Both the position numbers and the translations under genes were made by a program. From the IMG/VR virus record IMGVR_UViG_3300034283_000433, positions 4,323-68,322 of that record: a stretch of DNA of 64,000 nucleotides; one strand, given 5' to 3'. The notes beneath the pieces were generated by a model, which saw nothing but the letters and a program-made list of their open reading frames with translations, searched no databases and was not told the origin of the DNA. Shown piece by piece: positions 10,469 to 51,550 of this stretch. Source of the stretch: a virus. How positions within the stretch are numbered: position 1 is the stretch's first letter; each line of letters opens with the position of its first letter.

Positions 10469-11083
10469 TTAGTTTAAGTAGGCTTTACCACTAATTGCAG
10501 CAGTAAAAGTTATTGTTAGTTGATTTAGTGAATTATATTTTACTTCTCCCATAATGATATCGTTAGACGTATCCACGATATTTATGGCAGCATATTTATT
10601 TAAATTATGTACTACTGTCCAAGTAGCACTTGCAACTTGTTGGTCGTGCACATAGTTTTCTCTTGTCTGTGTTTGGATATAACTAAGGTCAAGATTAACA
10701 TTTACGCTAGTGCCTGTAAAGTCCGTTGAGCCAGTTAATCCAAGCCCTAAATTCAATGGTGTAACTTTGAATACGTATGGAGATACTGTATTAATGCTAG
10801 AAACCACCACTATGTCGCTATATATTGGGCTTAACTTACCATAGTCATATAGATTCACCTTTGCACTTAACCTCTCTACAACCTTGTCTAGTTTACTATT
10901 ACCTACATAGTAATTATCAGCCCACTCAACAGCTTTCTTGTATAAAAAGATTATATCTCTCTCATAATCAAGCAGTTCGCTGTCTTCAGCAAACATATCG
11001 TCATAAGCTACTGAGCCTAGTCTATAAAGGGTTTTATCCGCCTTTAAGAGAATATCTGATATTTCGGTTATAGTATAACCCAT
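10469..11083 (-). CDS. Tail fibre attachment (hub-like) protein
   Basis: C-terminal YVH.Q..AS.TW...HNL...GKAYLN domain; position before fibres. Confidence 0.6.
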   Translation of the reverse strand: MGYTITEISDILLKADKTLYRLGSVAYDDMFAEDSELLDYERDIIFLYKKAVEWADNYYVGNSKLDKVVERLSAKVNLYDYGKLSPIYSDIVVVSSINTVSPYVFKVTPLNLGLGLTGSTDFTGTSVNVNLDLSYIQTQTRENYVHDQQVASATWTVVHNLNKYAAINIVDTSNDIIMGEVKYNSLNQLTITFTAAISGKAYLN

Positions 11084-11637
11084 TAGTAACCTATTTTAAG
11101 AGCATCAGAAATATACTTACCTCTATCAAGGCAAGACTGAGAAGCACCAATGTCTCCGTCAATACCAGCCTTCTTAGCTGATTCTTGCTCTATGAATAAT
11201 CTCTGTAAGTCCTTTACGAATTTGTAGTCTTTCTCAAGACCTGTGCTAATAGCCATCTTATTGGCATTAGAGAAGAACGCACTCATAATGTAGCAAATCA
11301 ATACTACAAGTTCTGTCTTAGTATATACGCTACCTGTCTGAGGTGAGCTAGAAGTAAGTGCTAATGTTATATTAAAAGCATAATCCTTGTCTATAAAGGG
11401 CACATTCTTGTCGTCTACGCCACTCAATGTAATGCTGTTTCCTGAAGCAAAAGGCCATACGTATTGGTTATATGTAACACCATTTACCTTTAGATATGTA
11501 CCATCTGATTTAACGATTGTAAGCTTTCTAGAAGAGAATGTATTTGTAGCCTCTACATTATAGGTAGACGTATCAGTCACAATGAACTGACTGCAGTCTG
11601 CTCCTTGGGTAATGCTAATTGAGGTGATAAAAGGCAT
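11083..11637 (-). CDS. Putative virion structural protein
   Basis: Start moved to MPFITS (ATG 11637), just downstream of TATATTTG at 11653-11660. Confidence 0.6.
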   Translation of the reverse strand: MPFITSISITQGADCSQFIVTDTSTYNVEATNTFSSRKLTIVKSDGTYLKVNGVTYNQYVWPFASGNSITLSGVDDKNVPFIDKDYAFNITLALTSSSPQTGSVYTKTELVVLICYIMSAFFSNANKMAISTGLEKDYKFVKDLQRLFIEQESAKKAGIDGDIGASQSCLDRGKYISDALKIGY

Positions 11638-42785: not shown

Positions 42786-43244
42786 CTAAATTAAGCGTAG
42801 CCTGTTTCCGTTGAAGAATACGTTAGGATTTACCCAGTACTCTATATTAGACCCTAACTTCTGGGCTATAATCTTAGCTTCTATTAATTCACTAACAGCT
42901 GTTCGTATAGTATTAGCAGATGATATACCTGTAGCCACCTGTATATCGGGTATATGGTATACTACGGTCTGACTGAGGGGGCGTATGGTGCAGGCCCCGT
43001 AAACCAGTAGCCTCAACCCAGTACCCGACAATTTCATTAAGTCTTTAAGATTATCTGTAAACAGCTTTGTATAGGCAGAGGTATCTGTCAGCGACATCTT
43101 GTTCTTGGGTATCTTGCGTACAGCGTATAGGTCATCACCATCCTTTAGCTGCCATACCTCCTCGTTCTGTTTAGTTAGGAAATGCTTTTCTTCTAGCCCT
43201 ATAATTCTAAAGGGGCTATGTAGGTACGATTCGTACTTTTTCAT
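42786..43244 (-). CDS. RepL-like winged-helix DNA-binding protein
   Basis: HTH then YWVNPNVFFNGNR, the plasmid RepL-type C-terminal signature. Confidence 0.7.
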   Translation of the reverse strand: MKKYESYLHSPFRIIGLEEKHFLTKQNEEVWQLKDGDDLYAVRKIPKNKMSLTDTSAYTKLFTDNLKDLMKLSGTGLRLLVYGACTIRPLSQTVVYHIPDIQVATGISSANTIRTAVSELIEAKIIAQKLGSNIEYWVNPNVFFNGNRLRLI

Positions 43245-43629
43245 ATCTTCGTATTGACTTATTTAAAATGAAAACGAAGATACGTCATTTTGCAGCCTAA
43301 AACTCAATTTGACGTATTTTTTTTACAAAAAATTGAAAAACACATATTGATTTACAACGTGTTACAAGGTTTCCTTCTTATATATATTATATAGAATTCT
43401 ATAGTCTGTTTATAGTCCACTTATTTATATAAAATACTGGACAATCTATAGGAGCCTGGAGGCTCTTGTTTATGTAAGGAATGTAACCGTGCAAGGGAAC
43501 TATATAGTAATACTGCGCATAGTGCCTAGGTGAAAGTCAAATCCTGCAACCGAGTACCCCTAGATTCAAATTGATTATCAAGCAAGTAATATAGGAAAGT
43601 AACCTAGATAGAAAGGTAAATAGATATGC

Positions 43630-43781
43630 TAATGTGTATATTATACACTAAGTAATGTGTAATAAATACACTAACGAGCGTAAGCGATAACCCCTACGAA
43701 AGAAATCGTAAATCCTAAACTCTAATCCCTACTAAACTAATAGACTAATGCTTTATAACTAATGTGTAAAATGTACACTAA
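43630..43781. repeat. Three 22-bp repeats TAATGTGTA-N5-TACACTAA with palindromic core
   Basis: Copies at 43630-43651, 43653-43674, 43760-43781. Confidence 0.9.
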
Positions 43782-43944
43782 CTATAACTCCGAAATGCTT
43801 CGTAATCAAGGGTAAATGTTAAAATTCCTTTAACACATTTCCTGCCATTTAGGGGCGATTTTAGCCCGTCTCCATCGTTTTGGATGTCTACCCTTGGACA
43901 CTCCGAGAAGTGCCAAATTTGGGGAAATGCGCCTTACCTCTAAT

Positions 43945-44003
43945 TGCGCGCGCGTATGTACGCGTGTGTATGTGTGCGCGTGTACGTGTATGCGCACGTA
44001 TGC
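43945..44003. other. 59-bp strictly alternating pyrimidine-purine tract
   Basis: TGCGCGCGCGTATGTACGCGTGTG...GTATGC checked base by base. Confidence 0.9.
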
Positions 44004-44099
44004 CTGCGCGCTATATCCTTATACCACAGCTGTAAAAAATCTTTTAACAAAACCTTAACTAGGCTGTTGATTGCGGTATCAAAACTATTTTGCAGTTTT

Positions 44100-44436
44100 A
44101 CAATGTCAACGGGGACGACCTAATGACACAGCTCTTTTAACGTTTCTTTAACACTCTTGCATACCTGACCTCAATAAGTCACTTAGTCACTGCAAGTATG
44201 GTCTCGCTAGGCTTTCCGCTGTAAAGCGTTGTAGCAATCACGAAGAGTGAGAGAGACCCATCCGATGGTTATGATGGTGCATAAACTCAACCCTGCTTTT
44301 GGTTTCCCTAGGACTATAGGCAGTAAAACTAGGCGACGAAATGGTTCAGTTCCATAGTAGTTGAAGATGGCGCGTTTAAAAACGTTAGCTGTTCGGAGCG
44401 TTGGGTGACAGCAATGCCCTCTAAAATAACGATGTC
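44100..44436 (+). ncRNA. Structured RNA upstream of hammerhead (unknown class)
   Basis: GC-elevated, no ORF in the track; several multi-branch helices with G-U pairs on + strand. Confidence 0.6.
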
Positions 44437-44484
44437 CGCGGATAAATTACTCCGCGCTGATGAGCTGCAGAACAGCGAAACATT
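44431..44484 (+). ncRNA. Type III hammerhead ribozyme
   Basis: GAUGUC^ / stem I CGCGGA-UCCGCG / CUGAUGA / stem II GCUG-CAGC / GAAA / stem III ACAUU; cleavage predicted after 44436. Confidence 0.93.
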
Positions 44485-44498
44485 TAAACCTAAATACT

Positions 44499-44765
44499 AT
44501 GAAAGCTACAATTAACGGCACAATGCTAAACGAAGACAGATTTGTTATTGAATTAAACGCTGAACAAATGGAAGACCTAGCTGTCTACTACTTGCTAGAG
44601 TCTTGCAAGTGGGACGCTAAGAATATCAAGTACGATGGCAATGATATGAGACAAAGAGATACCTACAATAGATTAGCTGACAAGTACTACACAATGTACA
44701 AATCAATCAAGGCTATACAAGGTAAGGAAGAACCAATAGGTGTTGAATATATCCTAGAAAATTAA
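44499..44765 (+). CDS. First early protein, hypothetical
   Basis: ATG 44499 (MKATING) after A-rich leader, just past the ribozyme. Confidence 0.75.
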   Translation: MKATINGTMLNEDRFVIELNAEQMEDLAVYYLLESCKWDAKNIKYDGNDMRQRDTYNRLADKYYTMYKSIKAIQGKEEPIGVEYILEN

Positions 44766-44818
44766 TTAACCACGGGGGTTAACAGCCCCCACATTTTAAC
44801 CTAAAAAAATATACAATT

Positions 44819-45742
44819 ATGAGACAACAAACAGCACAACAAATGATGAACGATGCATCTAGATTCAGCGCACGCACAACCGCAGACGCGGAGCGCAAGA
44901 TTGACAACATCCTAGAGAACAGCAGACAAGACAATGTCTTCGTTGAGTCCTCTATTATTAGCTTATCTGAAATCACGGGAATGGACACGCGCAAAGGCCT
45001 AGAGCAGGCAGTTATTTGTGAGGGTCAAATCGTTAACGTGGTATCTTCTAGCTATGGCCACCTAGATAACCGCAAGTTCTACTACGAAGCAGAGTCCAAG
45101 CTAATTGATTCTGACATCTACTACAAACAGCGCTCTATCAACAAAGATAACCGCTCATTCGCTGTAGATTATGTACTTGCTGATGACCGCTACAAGATAT
45201 GCGTAAAGGGTGAAGAGGATGTACTACGTCCGATGTTACGATTCGTAAACTCTTACGATGGTAGCTGTAAGACTAGCGGCTCCTTTGGATTTTGGCGCAA
45301 AGTATGTGACAATGGACTACACGTTGCACATACTGAGATTGGATTCAGCGTTAAGCACCGCGGTAATATAGCAGACGTGGTAATGCCTAAGATGGACGAG
45401 ATTGTATCTAAGTTTATGGACAACGAGTTCTATACATTAAAACGCAAGTTTGAAGTATTGGCAGAGCGCCCCGTATACAACCTAGACGGATATGTAAAAG
45501 CTACAGCTAAATCATTAGGGCTGTTCAAGTACGAAGCTAGTGACAAGAACCCCGAGCCTAGCGCTAACGCTCGTTTTGTTCTAGATGTAATCAACCGCGA
45601 GACTAGACAATTGAATACACAACCTAACCAATGGATTGTATACAACGCGTTCAACGAATTGTTACACGGCAAGTTAAAGAAGACCTTTGACCAACAGCGT
45701 AACATTGACGAGCAATTGTTTGAGACTATCTATAATTCATAA
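44819..45742 (+). CDS. DUF932/DUF945-like early protein
   Basis: NSYDGS...GFWRKVCDNGL...KH motif and W..YNAFNE. Confidence 0.8.
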   Translation: MRQQTAQQMMNDASRFSARTTADAERKIDNILENSRQDNVFVESSIISLSEITGMDTRKGLEQAVICEGQIVNVVSSSYGHLDNRKFYYEAESKLIDSDIYYKQRSINKDNRSFAVDYVLADDRYKICVKGEEDVLRPMLRFVNSYDGSCKTSGSFGFWRKVCDNGLHVAHTEIGFSVKHRGNIADVVMPKMDEIVSKFMDNEFYTLKRKFEVLAERPVYNLDGYVKATAKSLGLFKYEASDKNPEPSANARFVLDVINRETRQLNTQPNQWIVYNAFNELLHGKLKKTFDQQRNIDEQLFETIYNS

Positions 45743-51452: not shown

Positions 51453-51550
51453 CAAATCCGATAAGGTAGGGGATGACTTTATCGGGTATGTTTCAAGAAC
51501 TAACCCTTCTTAAGATATGCCCATTAGAATCCCCTCTAGTGGGCTTTTTT
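51453..51550 (+). ncRNA. ~100-nt two-hairpin RNA with complementary loops, ending in terminator
   Basis: 11-bp hairpin with loop AGGGGAUG; 9-bp hairpin with loop AAUCCCCU, then U6. Confidence 0.65.

What the first reader, a model, noticed from the sequence alone, without database searches (positions are those of the whole stretch)
44100..44436. Unclassified ~330-nt multi-domain RNA released by the ribozyme
Seen (hand-folded): TGTCA/TGACA (44104/44124); CTTGCA/TGCAAG (44156/44191); a three-way junction closed by GGTCTC/GAGACC (44200/44253); a domain closed by TCAAC/GTTGA (44287/44360) containing a T-arm-like ATGG-TTCAGTT-CCAT; GCTGTT/GACAGC (44388/44407). G-U pairs favour the + strand. Inferred: among the first RNAs made on infection and cut free with a 2',3'-cyclic phosphate. 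It could be a tRNA-like decoy, anti-defence RNA or protein sponge.
Basis: partly seen in the sequence, partly recalled or inferred. Interest (0 to 1): 0.85.

Follow-up and report, generated by a model that had tools for sequence, protein, structure and literature searches.

The report
Ribozyme-ended leader RNA of phage early operon
This stretch is the gene-free start of a freshwater phage's early transcript: a short conserved front part that looks like the signal bacteria use to keep RNA polymerase from stopping, then a folded body that close relatives swap for other versions, then a self-cutting RNA that severs it from the first gene.

Summary
Window 44100-44436 is non-coding. It lies between a Bacteroidota-type promoter (about 44066-44092) and a type III hammerhead (44429-44486, cut after 44436), 12 nt before the first early gene. 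On their own they are no more than chance: folding energy and stem counts match shuffled sequence.

Comparison with relatives supports part of the fold:
- The 5' hairpin and the CTTGCA/TGCAAG domain belong to a "head" shared by five leader types. All 11 head pairs are kept, with 2-4 pair types each.
- The GGTCTC/GAGACC junction has a compensated counterpart in one other type.
- The T-arm-like hairpin, TCAAC/GTTGA and GCTGTT/GACAGC remain untested or unsupported.

The head is preceded by BoxA-like words (GCTCTTTTAAC, TTTCTTTAACA). Close relatives keep the promoter, head and ribozyme. They replace the body with an unrelated, covariation-proven RNA, and one replaces the hammerhead with a twister.

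Best reading: a nut/rrn-like antitermination leader plus a swappable folded body, cut off so the mRNA is freed. No Rfam family matches. No expression or cleavage was shown. This scan has already noted similar BoxA-plus-ribozyme leaders in other phage genomes.

The parts
44066..44092 (+). Candidate Bacteroidota-type promoter. TTG words sit at 44067-44073 and a -7-like TATTTTG box at 44086-44092. The start of transcription is inferred near 44096-44101.
   Evidence: Read. The same TTTG-CAG-TTTTACAATGTC context is conserved in relatives. The TAnnTTTG consensus is recalled, and no start site was measured.
44104..44128 (+).
   Evidence: Present. Local fold z = -2.51, with 4 of 200 shuffles as good. 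Relatives keep TGTC...GAC pairing with inserts of very different length, which argues for an RNA stem rather than a fixed-spacing DNA operator.
44131..44153 (+). Two tandem BoxA-like words: GCTCTTTTAAC (44131-44141) and TTTCTTTAACA (44143-44153).
   Evidence: The second word matches GYTCTTTAANA at 10 of 11 positions (consensus read in PMC5725501). UCUUUAACA equals the E. coli UGCUCUUUAACA core (PMC13753749). GTTCTTT is invariant in 8 of 8 B-type leaders and present in the C, D and L007 types. The 7-mer alone is common: 30 copies in the window.
44156..44196 (+). 'Head' domain. Bulge is U44162. P1a is 44163-64/44186-87. P2 is 44166-69/44178-81. Unpaired CAC is 44188-90.
   Evidence: In the descriptor scan, 18 of 18 hits lying next to a GUUCUUU-like word are leader heads, against 30 other hits in 2.64 Mb. 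All 11 pairs are Watson-Crick in 7 sequences of 5 types, with 2-4 pair types each.
44200..44258 (+). Second domain: a three-way junction closed by GGTCTC/GAGACC, with hairpins CGCT-GTAA-AGCG (44217-28) and CAC-GAAGA-GTG (44239-49).
   Evidence: Fold z = -1.84. The L144 leader has GGTCAC/GTGACC (one compensated pair) and CTGC-GAAGA-GCAG. No change is listed here in the diverged variant of run X15.
44259..44346 (+). Variable middle, including the CCTAG/CTAGG hairpin (44307-11/44329-33) with a 17-nt loop.
   Evidence: 11 substitutions and 4 indels are listed here in run X15, none in the 10 stem bases and 6 in the loop. The only changes listed here in X12, X13 and X17 (44326, 44317) also lie in that loop. 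This reading is post hoc.
44287..44364 (+).
   Evidence: Words present. Fold z = -1.06. A three-pair counterpart appears in the two-sequence alignment with L144. The T-loop reading is not supported.
44347..44430 (+). 3' block with hairpin CGTT-TAAA-AACG (44373-84) and GCTGTT/GACAGC (44388-93/44407-12).
   Evidence: No change is listed in run X15 apart from one base left out at 44431. Fold z = +0.20. There is no covariation data.
44429..44486 (+). Type III hammerhead ribozyme, with cleavage after C44436.
   Evidence: RF00008 at 38.6 bits, E 2e-6. The same site scores 35.8-47.9 bits in relatives. Stems covary (CGCGG/CCGCG, CTAGG/CCTAG, ACTGC/GCAGT; GCTG/CAGC, GTCG/CGAC, GTCA/TGAC, GCCA/TGGC).
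44499..44765 (+). First early gene (88 aa, no family). It starts 12 nt after the ribozyme.
   Evidence: ORF, with no Pfam or PHROG hit. L002 carries the same leader with a different first gene, and L104 carries a similar first gene with another leader.

Best explanation
44097-44436 is the non-coding leader of the phage's rightward early operon. Host RNA polymerase starts at a Bacteroidota-type promoter. It first makes a 5' hairpin, two BoxA-like words and a small conserved stem-loop 'head' (44104-44196). Together these resemble the boxB-boxA start of rRNA operons and lambda nut sites. I infer that they recruit NusB/S10 and the other Nus factors, so that polymerase reads through the roughly 15-kb operon and its internal terminator-like hairpins.

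Behind the head lies a folded body of about 240 nt (44197-44430). It is a swappable cassette: near-identical phages carry unrelated bodies.

The type III hammerhead then cuts the leader off, leaving a 2',3'-cyclic phosphate on the leader and a 5'-OH on the mRNA. I infer that the cut frees the first gene's start region from the leader and from any polymerase-bound RNA loop. This is the job RNase III does between nutL and gene N in lambda.

Shown: the position, non-coding nature, ribozyme, head homology, body swapping and ribozyme-class swapping. Inferred: the promoter and start site, Nus binding, antitermination, the reason for the cut and the role of the body.
For: Non-coding status and boundaries:
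- No ORF over 36 aa lies inside the stretch.
- The hammerhead scores E 2e-6 with covarying stems.

Selection keeps the cut itself:
- L105 and L106 carry the same kind of leader, but a twister-P1-like ribozyme (41.4 bits, E 2.5e-6, below the gathering score of 67.2) replaces the hammerhead at the same place.

The slot holds structured RNA:
- In 8 B-type leaders, 65 pairs are 97.9% paired and 23 show double changes, against 0-3 in the slid controls.

The head is shared:
- All 18 descriptor hits that lie next to a GUUCUUU-like word are leader heads. They include L144, which was not used in designing the descriptor. There are 30 other hits in 2.64 Mb.
- All 11 head pairs are kept across five types.

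BoxA likeness:
- TTTCTTTAACA matches GYTCTTTAANA at 10 of 11 positions (passages of PMC5725501).
- B. subtilis rrn operons begin with a small 5' hairpin followed at once by AUGAUCUUUGAAA, and NusB binds that RNA (passages of PMC13753749). Several of the phage leaders read CGTTCTTTGAAAT right after a 5' hairpin.
- With the changes listed for run X15, the second word reads GTTCTTTAA while its flanks are remodelled.

Lambda parallel:
- nutL lies about 200 nt upstream of N, the sequence between them is highly structured, and the nut-polymerase loop represses N translation (discussion passage of PMC5725501, citing Wilson 1997 and 2002).

Terminator-like hairpins within the + operon:
- 23 are found against 10.3 +/- 3.1 in shuffles, for example at 51519 and 54945.

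The body is a cassette:
- L103 has a 100% identical DUF932 protein and a 100% identical hammerhead, but no similarity across 44113-44431.
- The W body is seen only in L002/L026 among about 1 Mb of loci.
- It occurs in at least 14 freshwater DNA runs.
Against: - No RNA data. Expression, the 5' end, cleavage and stability are all unshown.
- The promoter is read by eye against a recalled consensus, and the -7 box is one base short of TAnnTTTG.
- The BoxA words are short. G[CT]TCTTT occurs 30 times in the window and TCTTTAACA 4 times, so the case rests on position and conservation.
- The BoxA of Bacteroidota rRNA operons was not examined, because no bacterial genome was reachable.
- Covariance models built from B-type leaders do not find the window's leader significantly: R1 gives 7.9 bits, E 0.15 in 3 kb and 3.3 in 67 kb, with coding DNA scoring as high. 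R2 finds nothing, but it also missed the positive control L152.
- The head descriptor was written after seeing the window, and its one-base offset option was added for it.
- The W body shows no thermodynamic signal and has only one distant partial relative (L144, local alignment z = 3.7, 1 of 300 shuffles as high).
- Cutting an antiterminator RNA off the transcript could just as well release it from polymerase.
- The unchanged blocks in run X15 may reflect recent recombination rather than constraint, and that list may be truncated.
Confidence: 0.45

Rival explanations
1. The released ~340-nt RNA is itself the product: a trans-acting early RNA (decoy, anti-defence RNA or protein sponge) that the ribozyme frees from the mRNA. 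It can coexist with the BoxA head.
For: The body is exchanged as a cassette among phages whose flanks and next genes are 90-100% identical, as counter-defence loci often are. Two ribozyme classes serve the same slot. The B-type body is strongly structure-constrained. RNA-based anti-defence exists (abstract of PMC10651486, seen in listing).
Against: No tRNA or other known family likeness. No complementarity of 13 nt or more to the rest of the window. No target, no expression data and no stability data. The best-conserved part is the promoter-proximal BoxA/head, which fits a cis role.
Confidence: 0.25
2. The body is only a structured spacer or disposable 5' UTR. The ribozyme acts as a natural insulator that removes whatever leader recombination has placed there, and the body has no specific function.
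For: The W body has no thermodynamic or stem-count signal. Unrelated bodies are tolerated in the same slot. The ribozyme sits 12 nt before the start codon.
Against: B-type bodies keep 23 compensated pairs, which costs selection. Two blocks of the W body (109 and 84 nt) show no listed change in a variant with 21 listed substitutions elsewhere. W and L144 share a compensated domain.
Confidence: 0.2
3. The signal is in the DNA, not the RNA: an origin, operator or packaging element next to the RepL-like gene at the strand switch.
For: It lies in the 1.2-kb gap between divergent operons, near a RepL-like gene (18.3 bits, below the cut-off) and an alternating purine-pyrimidine tract.
Against: Pairing is kept through compensatory changes and through inserts of very different length, with G-U pairs that would be A-C on the other strand. 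The stretch is bracketed by a promoter-like site and a ribozyme on the same strand.
Confidence: 0.05

Closest known systems
Lambda PL leader: nutL (boxA + boxB hairpin), about 200 nt of structured leader with an RNase III site, then gene N
   Same: The order of parts: early promoter, BoxA-like word next to a hairpin, a structured leader a few hundred nt long, a cut, and the first early gene. Discussion passages of PMC5725501 describe nutL, the structured intervening RNA and loop-mediated repression of N translation.
   Different: Here the cut is made by a self-cleaving ribozyme rather than host RNase III. The hairpin precedes BoxA. No N-like protein is evident, since the first gene has no family. 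The host phylum is Bacteroidota. Nothing was tested biochemically. The role of RNase III in relieving repression is known to me only from the title of Wilson 2002, seen in the reference list, and from recall.
rRNA operon leaders (boxB-boxA-boxC; the B. subtilis rrn leader with a 5' hairpin then a boxA-like word)
   Same: A small hairpin at the 5' end is followed at once by a BoxA-like word, and the leader is later cut off (PMC13753749 passages; abstract of PMC10250234).
   Different: It heads protein-coding phage genes, not rRNA. No leader-trailer helix was sought. The BoxA of the host phylum was not checked.
Hammerhead ribozymes flanking genes in prophages and phages (Perreault et al. 2011, PMC3088659)
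   Same: A consensus-core hammerhead in a phage polycistronic transcript just upstream of a gene. The function in those cases is also unknown (passages; review PMC6765202).
   Different: That paper, in the passages I read, describes ribozymes between genes. It does not describe a conserved BoxA/head leader with a swappable folded body upstream of the ribozyme.
RAGATH motifs (Rfam): structured RNAs found near twister and hammerhead ribozymes
   Same: An uncharacterised structured RNA next to a self-cleaving ribozyme in phage-like DNA. What the acronym stands for is recalled.
   Different: No RAGATH model matches 44100-44436 at E<=10. The only RAGATH hit (RAGATH-7, 18.6 bits against a cut-off of 111.8, E 0.22) lies upstream of the promoter at 43441-43664.
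RiboJ-type synthetic ribozyme insulators (recalled, no paper read)
   Same: A hammerhead between a variable 5' leader and the translation start makes expression independent of the leader.
   Different: This one is natural, and its leader carries conserved modules of its own.

Membership tests
Hammerhead ribozyme type III (RF00008), which sets the 3' boundary | Conserved core (CUGAUGA, GAAA, NUH cut site) with stems I and II closed and stem III open | tested here: met
   Full model match at 44429-44486 with GUC, CUGAUGAG and CGAAAC (alignment).
Hammerhead ribozyme type III (RF00008), which sets the 3' boundary | Score at or above Rfam's gathering cut-off (48.5 bits) | tested here: not met
   38.6 bits, E 2e-6, and absent from the gathering scan. 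Relatives score 35.8-47.9 bits.
Hammerhead ribozyme type III (RF00008), which sets the 3' boundary | Self-cleavage | not testable with these tools
   No RNA ends are available, because all runs laid were contigs.
BoxA / nut-like or rrn-like antitermination leader | Match to the BoxA consensus (GYTCTTTAANA; UGCUCUUUAACA; B. subtilis AUGAUCUUUGAAA) | tested here: inconclusive
   44143-44153 matches 10 of 11 positions and 44131-44141 matches 8 of 11. Such words are common by chance. The host-phylum consensus was not seen.
BoxA / nut-like or rrn-like antitermination leader | Promoter-proximal position in the transcript, next to a hairpin, conserved among relatives | tested here: met
   It is the first single-stranded element after the 5' hairpin in the W, B, C, D and L007 types and in part of the 42-leader cluster. 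GTTCTTT is invariant in 8 of 8 B-type leaders. The promoter itself is inferred.
BoxA / nut-like or rrn-like antitermination leader | Binding of NusB/S10 and terminator read-through | not testable with these tools
   Needs a gel shift and a reporter assay.
Phage early-leader 'head' shared with the B, C and D types (uncatalogued) | GUUCUUU-like word, 6-8 nt, P1 (5 bp), 1-nt bulge, P1a (2 bp), P2 (4 bp or more), 3-nt spacer, P1a', CAC, P1' | tested here: met
   Window 44157-44195 fits with a one-base offset (C-C mismatch at the base of P2). The descriptor was designed after seeing it. Covariance models R1 and R2 do not confirm it.
B-type leader body (L003, L004, L005, L103-L108) | Sequence or profile similarity across the body | tested here: not met
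   No blastn match to 44130-44431 other than L002/L026. Local alignment z = 0.3.
tRNA or tRNA-like element (T-arm) | T-loop and tRNA model match | tested here: not met
   ARAGORN finds 0 genes. No tRNA hit at E<=10. The loop TTCAGTT has G where A58 would be (T-loop rule recalled). Variant X15 inserts a base in the loop.
Any Rfam 15 family, including RAGATH and freshwater motifs | Covariance-model match | tested here: not met
   No gathering hits in the window. At E<=10, only the hammerhead lies within 44100-44500.

The most novel reading that the evidence does not exclude
After self-cleavage, the leader stays on RNA polymerase as a detachable RNA subunit. The BoxA/head anchors it through Nus factors. 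The exchangeable body is a specificity module that shields the early transcription complex from a host factor, such as Rho or an RNA-targeting defence. The ribozyme exists so that one RNA can be both a polymerase cofactor and physically separate from the message. That would be a new use for small ribozymes and an RNA-based, cassette-swapped layer of phage-host conflict.
Probability: 0.12. Interest if true: 0.85.

Novelty: new variant of a known kind. Interest (0 to 1): 0.58.

Why it matters
The biological purpose of hammerhead and twister ribozymes in phages and bacteria has been open since at least 2011 (passages of PMC3088659 and PMC6765202). This locus offers a concrete, testable rationale: the ribozyme separates a BoxA-type leader RNA from the first early message. 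The replacement of a hammerhead by a twister at the same place shows that the cut is what is kept.

It also shows a leader built from exchangeable RNA modules in otherwise near-identical freshwater phages. This would be a new place to look for RNA-level host takeover in Bacteroidota phages. None of my six answered paper searches listed a paper, by title or abstract start, describing this layout.

Tried and rejected
Approaches that gave nothing:
- Thermodynamic tests are uninformative. A proven structured relative also scores z = 0.
- Phage GenBank blastn of 43200-44800 found no match.
- IMG/VR scans with exact words from the W body returned only L026 plus a chance 18-mer in coding DNA, L136.
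- The pattern shared by W and L144 returned two further chance hits in GC-rich coding DNA, L160 and L161.
- The 16-mer of the leader start returned mostly chance hits, plus two real new leaders, L152 and L144.
- Two genome-contig scans found nothing.
- The metagenome scan by the DUF932 protein gave 33 loci, none with the W body.
- Model R1 gave a non-significant hit, and R2 failed on its positive control.
- MAFFT could not align heads with loops of different size, so I tabulated them by script.
- The L152 leader showed no Rfam ribozyme at E<=5.
- Antisense pairing of the leader to the rest of the window gave one 12-mer, against 3.3 expected.
- A small-protein reading is rejected. The longest internal ORF is 36 aa with a GTG start, and B-type alignments have non-triplet indels and compensated pairs.
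- Laying reads: all four runs were contigs, so they give no starts, ends, strand or level. Parts without cover mean nothing. The RNA-labelled runs X15 and X17 are 'probably DNA'. The tool says 32 differences and 6 indels were not shown, so 'no change listed' is not proof of identity.
- Bacteroidota rRNA leaders could not be fetched.
- Supplements were not opened. Supplementary Table 2 of PMC5725501 and Fig. S1 of PMC13753749 may bear on the BoxA comparison.

Full report
**Setting**

The window is an IMG/VR virus record of 68 kb. It has 36% G+C. A leftward structural block carries portal and terminase genes. A rightward block of small genes carries DUF932, a DnaA-type HTH, ERF and a PD-(D/E)XK nuclease. 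The two blocks diverge from a 1.2-kb gene-free gap at 43245-44498. The flagged stretch, 44100-44436, is the right part of that gap.

**Observation**

The 3' boundary is sound. Rfam's type III hammerhead matches 44429-44486 at 38.6 bits and E 2e-6, with an intact core and the GUC site ending at 44436. The score is below the curated cut-off of 48.5, so the gathering scan is empty. The same site in relatives scores 35.8-47.9 bits, and all three stems covary.

No other Rfam family matches the stretch at E<=10. ARAGORN finds no tRNA.

The helices alone are no more than chance:
- MFE z is -0.08 on the + strand and +0.81 on the - strand.
- Short perfect stems are no more numerous than in shuffles.
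- This test is blind for this class. A relative's leader that is proven by covariation also gives z = 0.00.

**Relatives and the cassette structure**

The DUF932 protein recovered 6 viral loci and 33 metagenome loci.
- L002 has the same leader. Within 44097-44487 it differs at one base.
- All other close relatives keep the sequence up to about 44112-44140 and from 44432 onward, but have no similarity in between.
- L103 is the sharpest case: its DUF932 protein and its hammerhead are each 100% identical to the window's, yet its body is different.
- Leader and first gene also assort independently.

The common alternative body, which I call B-type, is a real structured RNA. It has 8 sequences and 65 predicted pairs. 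97.9% of cells are paired. 23 pairs changed on both sides, against 0-3 when partners are slid, and 0 of 500 shuffles reach the observed values.

L105 and L106 have a B-type leader, but a twister-P1-like ribozyme (41.4 bits, E 2.5e-6, below the cut-off of 67.2) sits where the others have the hammerhead. The slot therefore holds structured RNA, and selection keeps the cut itself.

**How common is the W-type body?**

It is absent from about 1 Mb of fetched loci other than L002/L026. Exact-word scans of IMG/VR find it nowhere else.

It is present in 14 freshwater DNA runs at 90% or more of its sampled words, and 20 rows from 14 studies hold some of it. Nine of the rows may be the source sample.

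Laying four runs (contigs only) gave:
- Two recurrent single changes, A44123>C and A44326>T, both in unpaired positions of the proposed fold.
- One diverged copy in run X15, with 35 substitutions and 22 gap letters over 44089-44477.
- In X15 the listed changes cluster in 44113-44162 and 44272-44346. None is listed in 44163-44271 or 44347-44430.
- Six listed changes fall in the loop of a CCTAG/CTAGG hairpin and none in its stem.

The list is stated to be incomplete. Identical blocks could also come from recombination, so this is suggestive only.

**The head**

A scan for this hammerhead subtype found 95 stretches in IMG/VR. 42 of 82 distinct upstream leaders form one similarity cluster, and none of the 11 loci scanned has an Rfam family there.

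Across these and the close relatives, the transcript begins with a hairpin whose insert varies from 7 to 41 nt. A GTTCTTT-type word follows.

Behind that word, the B-type leaders, L152 (C-type), L144 (D-type) and the window all show the same small domain: P1, a one-base bulge, a 2-bp P1a, P2, a 3-nt spacer, and an unpaired CAC.

A structure-only descriptor gives 48 hits in 2.64 Mb. The 18 hits that lie within 20 nt of a GUUCUUU-like word are all leader heads, including L144, which played no part in the design. All 11 pairs are Watson-Crick in the 7 sequences tabulated, with 2-4 pair types per position.

Caveats:
- The window's copy is the most divergent and needs a one-base offset.
- The descriptor was written after I had seen it.
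- Covariance models built from B-type sequences do not confirm it. R1 gives 7.9 bits, with coding DNA scoring as high. R2 finds nothing, but it also misses the positive control L152.

**The second domain**

The body of L144 is weakly but detectably similar to the window's body: local alignment z = 3.7, with 1 of 300 shuffles as high. The B-type body is not (z = 0.3), while L144 against B-type gives z = 3.2.

The shared part includes:
- the closing helix GGTCTC/GAGACC against GGTCAC/GTGACC, with one compensated pair;
- a hairpin with the same GAAGA loop and different stems, CAC/GTG against CTGC/GCAG;
- the next 30 nt or so.

TCAAC/GTTGA has only a three-pair hint. GCTGTT/GACAGC and the T-arm-like hairpin have no support, and X15 inserts a base in the supposed T-loop.

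**BoxA**

The window reads GCTCTTTTAAC and then TTTCTTTAACA, immediately after the 5' hairpin and before the head.

Published consensus sequences, read as passages:
- GYTCTTTAANA for gamma-proteobacteria (PMC5725501).
- UGCUCUUUAACA for E. coli, and AUGAUCUUUGAAA for B. subtilis rrn operons. In B. subtilis it follows a small 5'-terminal hairpin, and NusB binds it (PMC13753749).

Several of the phage leaders read CGTTCTTTGAAAT in that position. With the changes listed for X15, the window-type word becomes GTTCTTTAA while its flanks are remodelled.

The words are short and frequent by chance. The argument rests on position and conservation, not on the match alone. I could not examine Bacteroidota rRNA leaders.

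**Mechanism proposed**

The front 100 nt resemble an rrn-type or nut-type signal that loads Nus factors on polymerase. The operon behind it contains terminator-like hairpins above expectation.

In lambda, nutL lies about 200 nt upstream of N, the RNA between them is highly structured, and the nut-polymerase loop represses N translation (discussion of PMC5725501). That RNase III processing relieves this repression I know only from the cited title and from recall.

By analogy, a ribozyme 12 nt before the first start codon would free that gene from the leader. This accounts for the ribozyme's position and for the interchangeability of hammerhead and twister.

It does not explain why the body is structured and swapped.

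**Literature and earlier notes**

Six answered searches listed no paper that, by title or abstract start, describes a BoxA-type leader joined to a self-cleaving ribozyme in phages. Two other attempts failed on term syntax. Perreault 2011 and the 2019 review say the role of phage hammerheads is unknown (passages).

This scan's own earlier notes describe similar leaders on other genomes: a head, a fast-evolving body and a hammerhead; a twister swap; boxA words. I reached the BoxA reading before that look-up (note). Those notes are AI leads, not independent evidence.

**Verdict**

This is a real, uncatalogued, ribozyme-terminated leader RNA. Its front third and second domain have comparative support. 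Its remaining structure and its function are unproven. The tRNA-like reading is rejected.

Noticed in passing
window 43943-44016; L003:1861-1922; L152:2210-2267: An alternating purine-pyrimidine (CG/TG) tract about 80 nt upstream of the early promoter recurs at the same place in relatives, although its sequence differs. It shows up only as spurious miRNA-model hits. This positionally conserved tract could form Z-DNA (inference).
   Followed up: partly
L105:417-475 (also L106): A twister-P1-like ribozyme (41.4 bits, E 2.5e-6) replaces the type III hammerhead between a B-type leader and the first gene.
   Followed up: yes
L006, L007, L109-L135 (e.g. L116:1025, 1487, 3089, 4553): Relatives carry many GGTTAACTGAYGA...GAAA type I hammerhead-like cores at gene junctions. 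One reaches 31.5 bits for Hammerhead_1 (L007:2117-2165). The window has none.
   Followed up: partly
L152 (- strand), reverse-complement positions 10748-11300: A longer leader type with the same head but a 62-nt insert in P2 and no recognisable ribozyme at E<=5 before its first gene. It may hold an unrecognised cleavage element, or none.
   Followed up: partly
L008-L102 (42 loci listed): A large family of leaders upstream of the same hammerhead subtype in other Bacteroidota-type phages. They share repeated AATGTTAAAGTTTTGTTAAAA...TATGTTTGCAGTG promoter-like words, a GAGACCACAG...GTGGCGGAGGTG...CTCTACTG core and a small AAATA-loop hairpin before the ribozyme. No Rfam family matches in the 11 loci scanned.
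   Followed up: partly
window 44773-44806: A GGGGG-TTAACA-GCCCCC hairpin followed by a short T run lies between the first gene and the DUF932 gene. The hairpin is conserved in L105/L106 without the T run.
   Followed up: no
window 43441-43664: A weak RAGATH-7 match (18.6 bits against a cut-off of 111.8, E 0.22) lies upstream of the promoter, in the region of palindromic boxes. It is probably chance.
   Followed up: no
window 44819-45742: The conserved second gene is a DUF932 protein (54.5 bits). Its sequence is 100% identical in a phage with a different leader (L103).
   Followed up: partly
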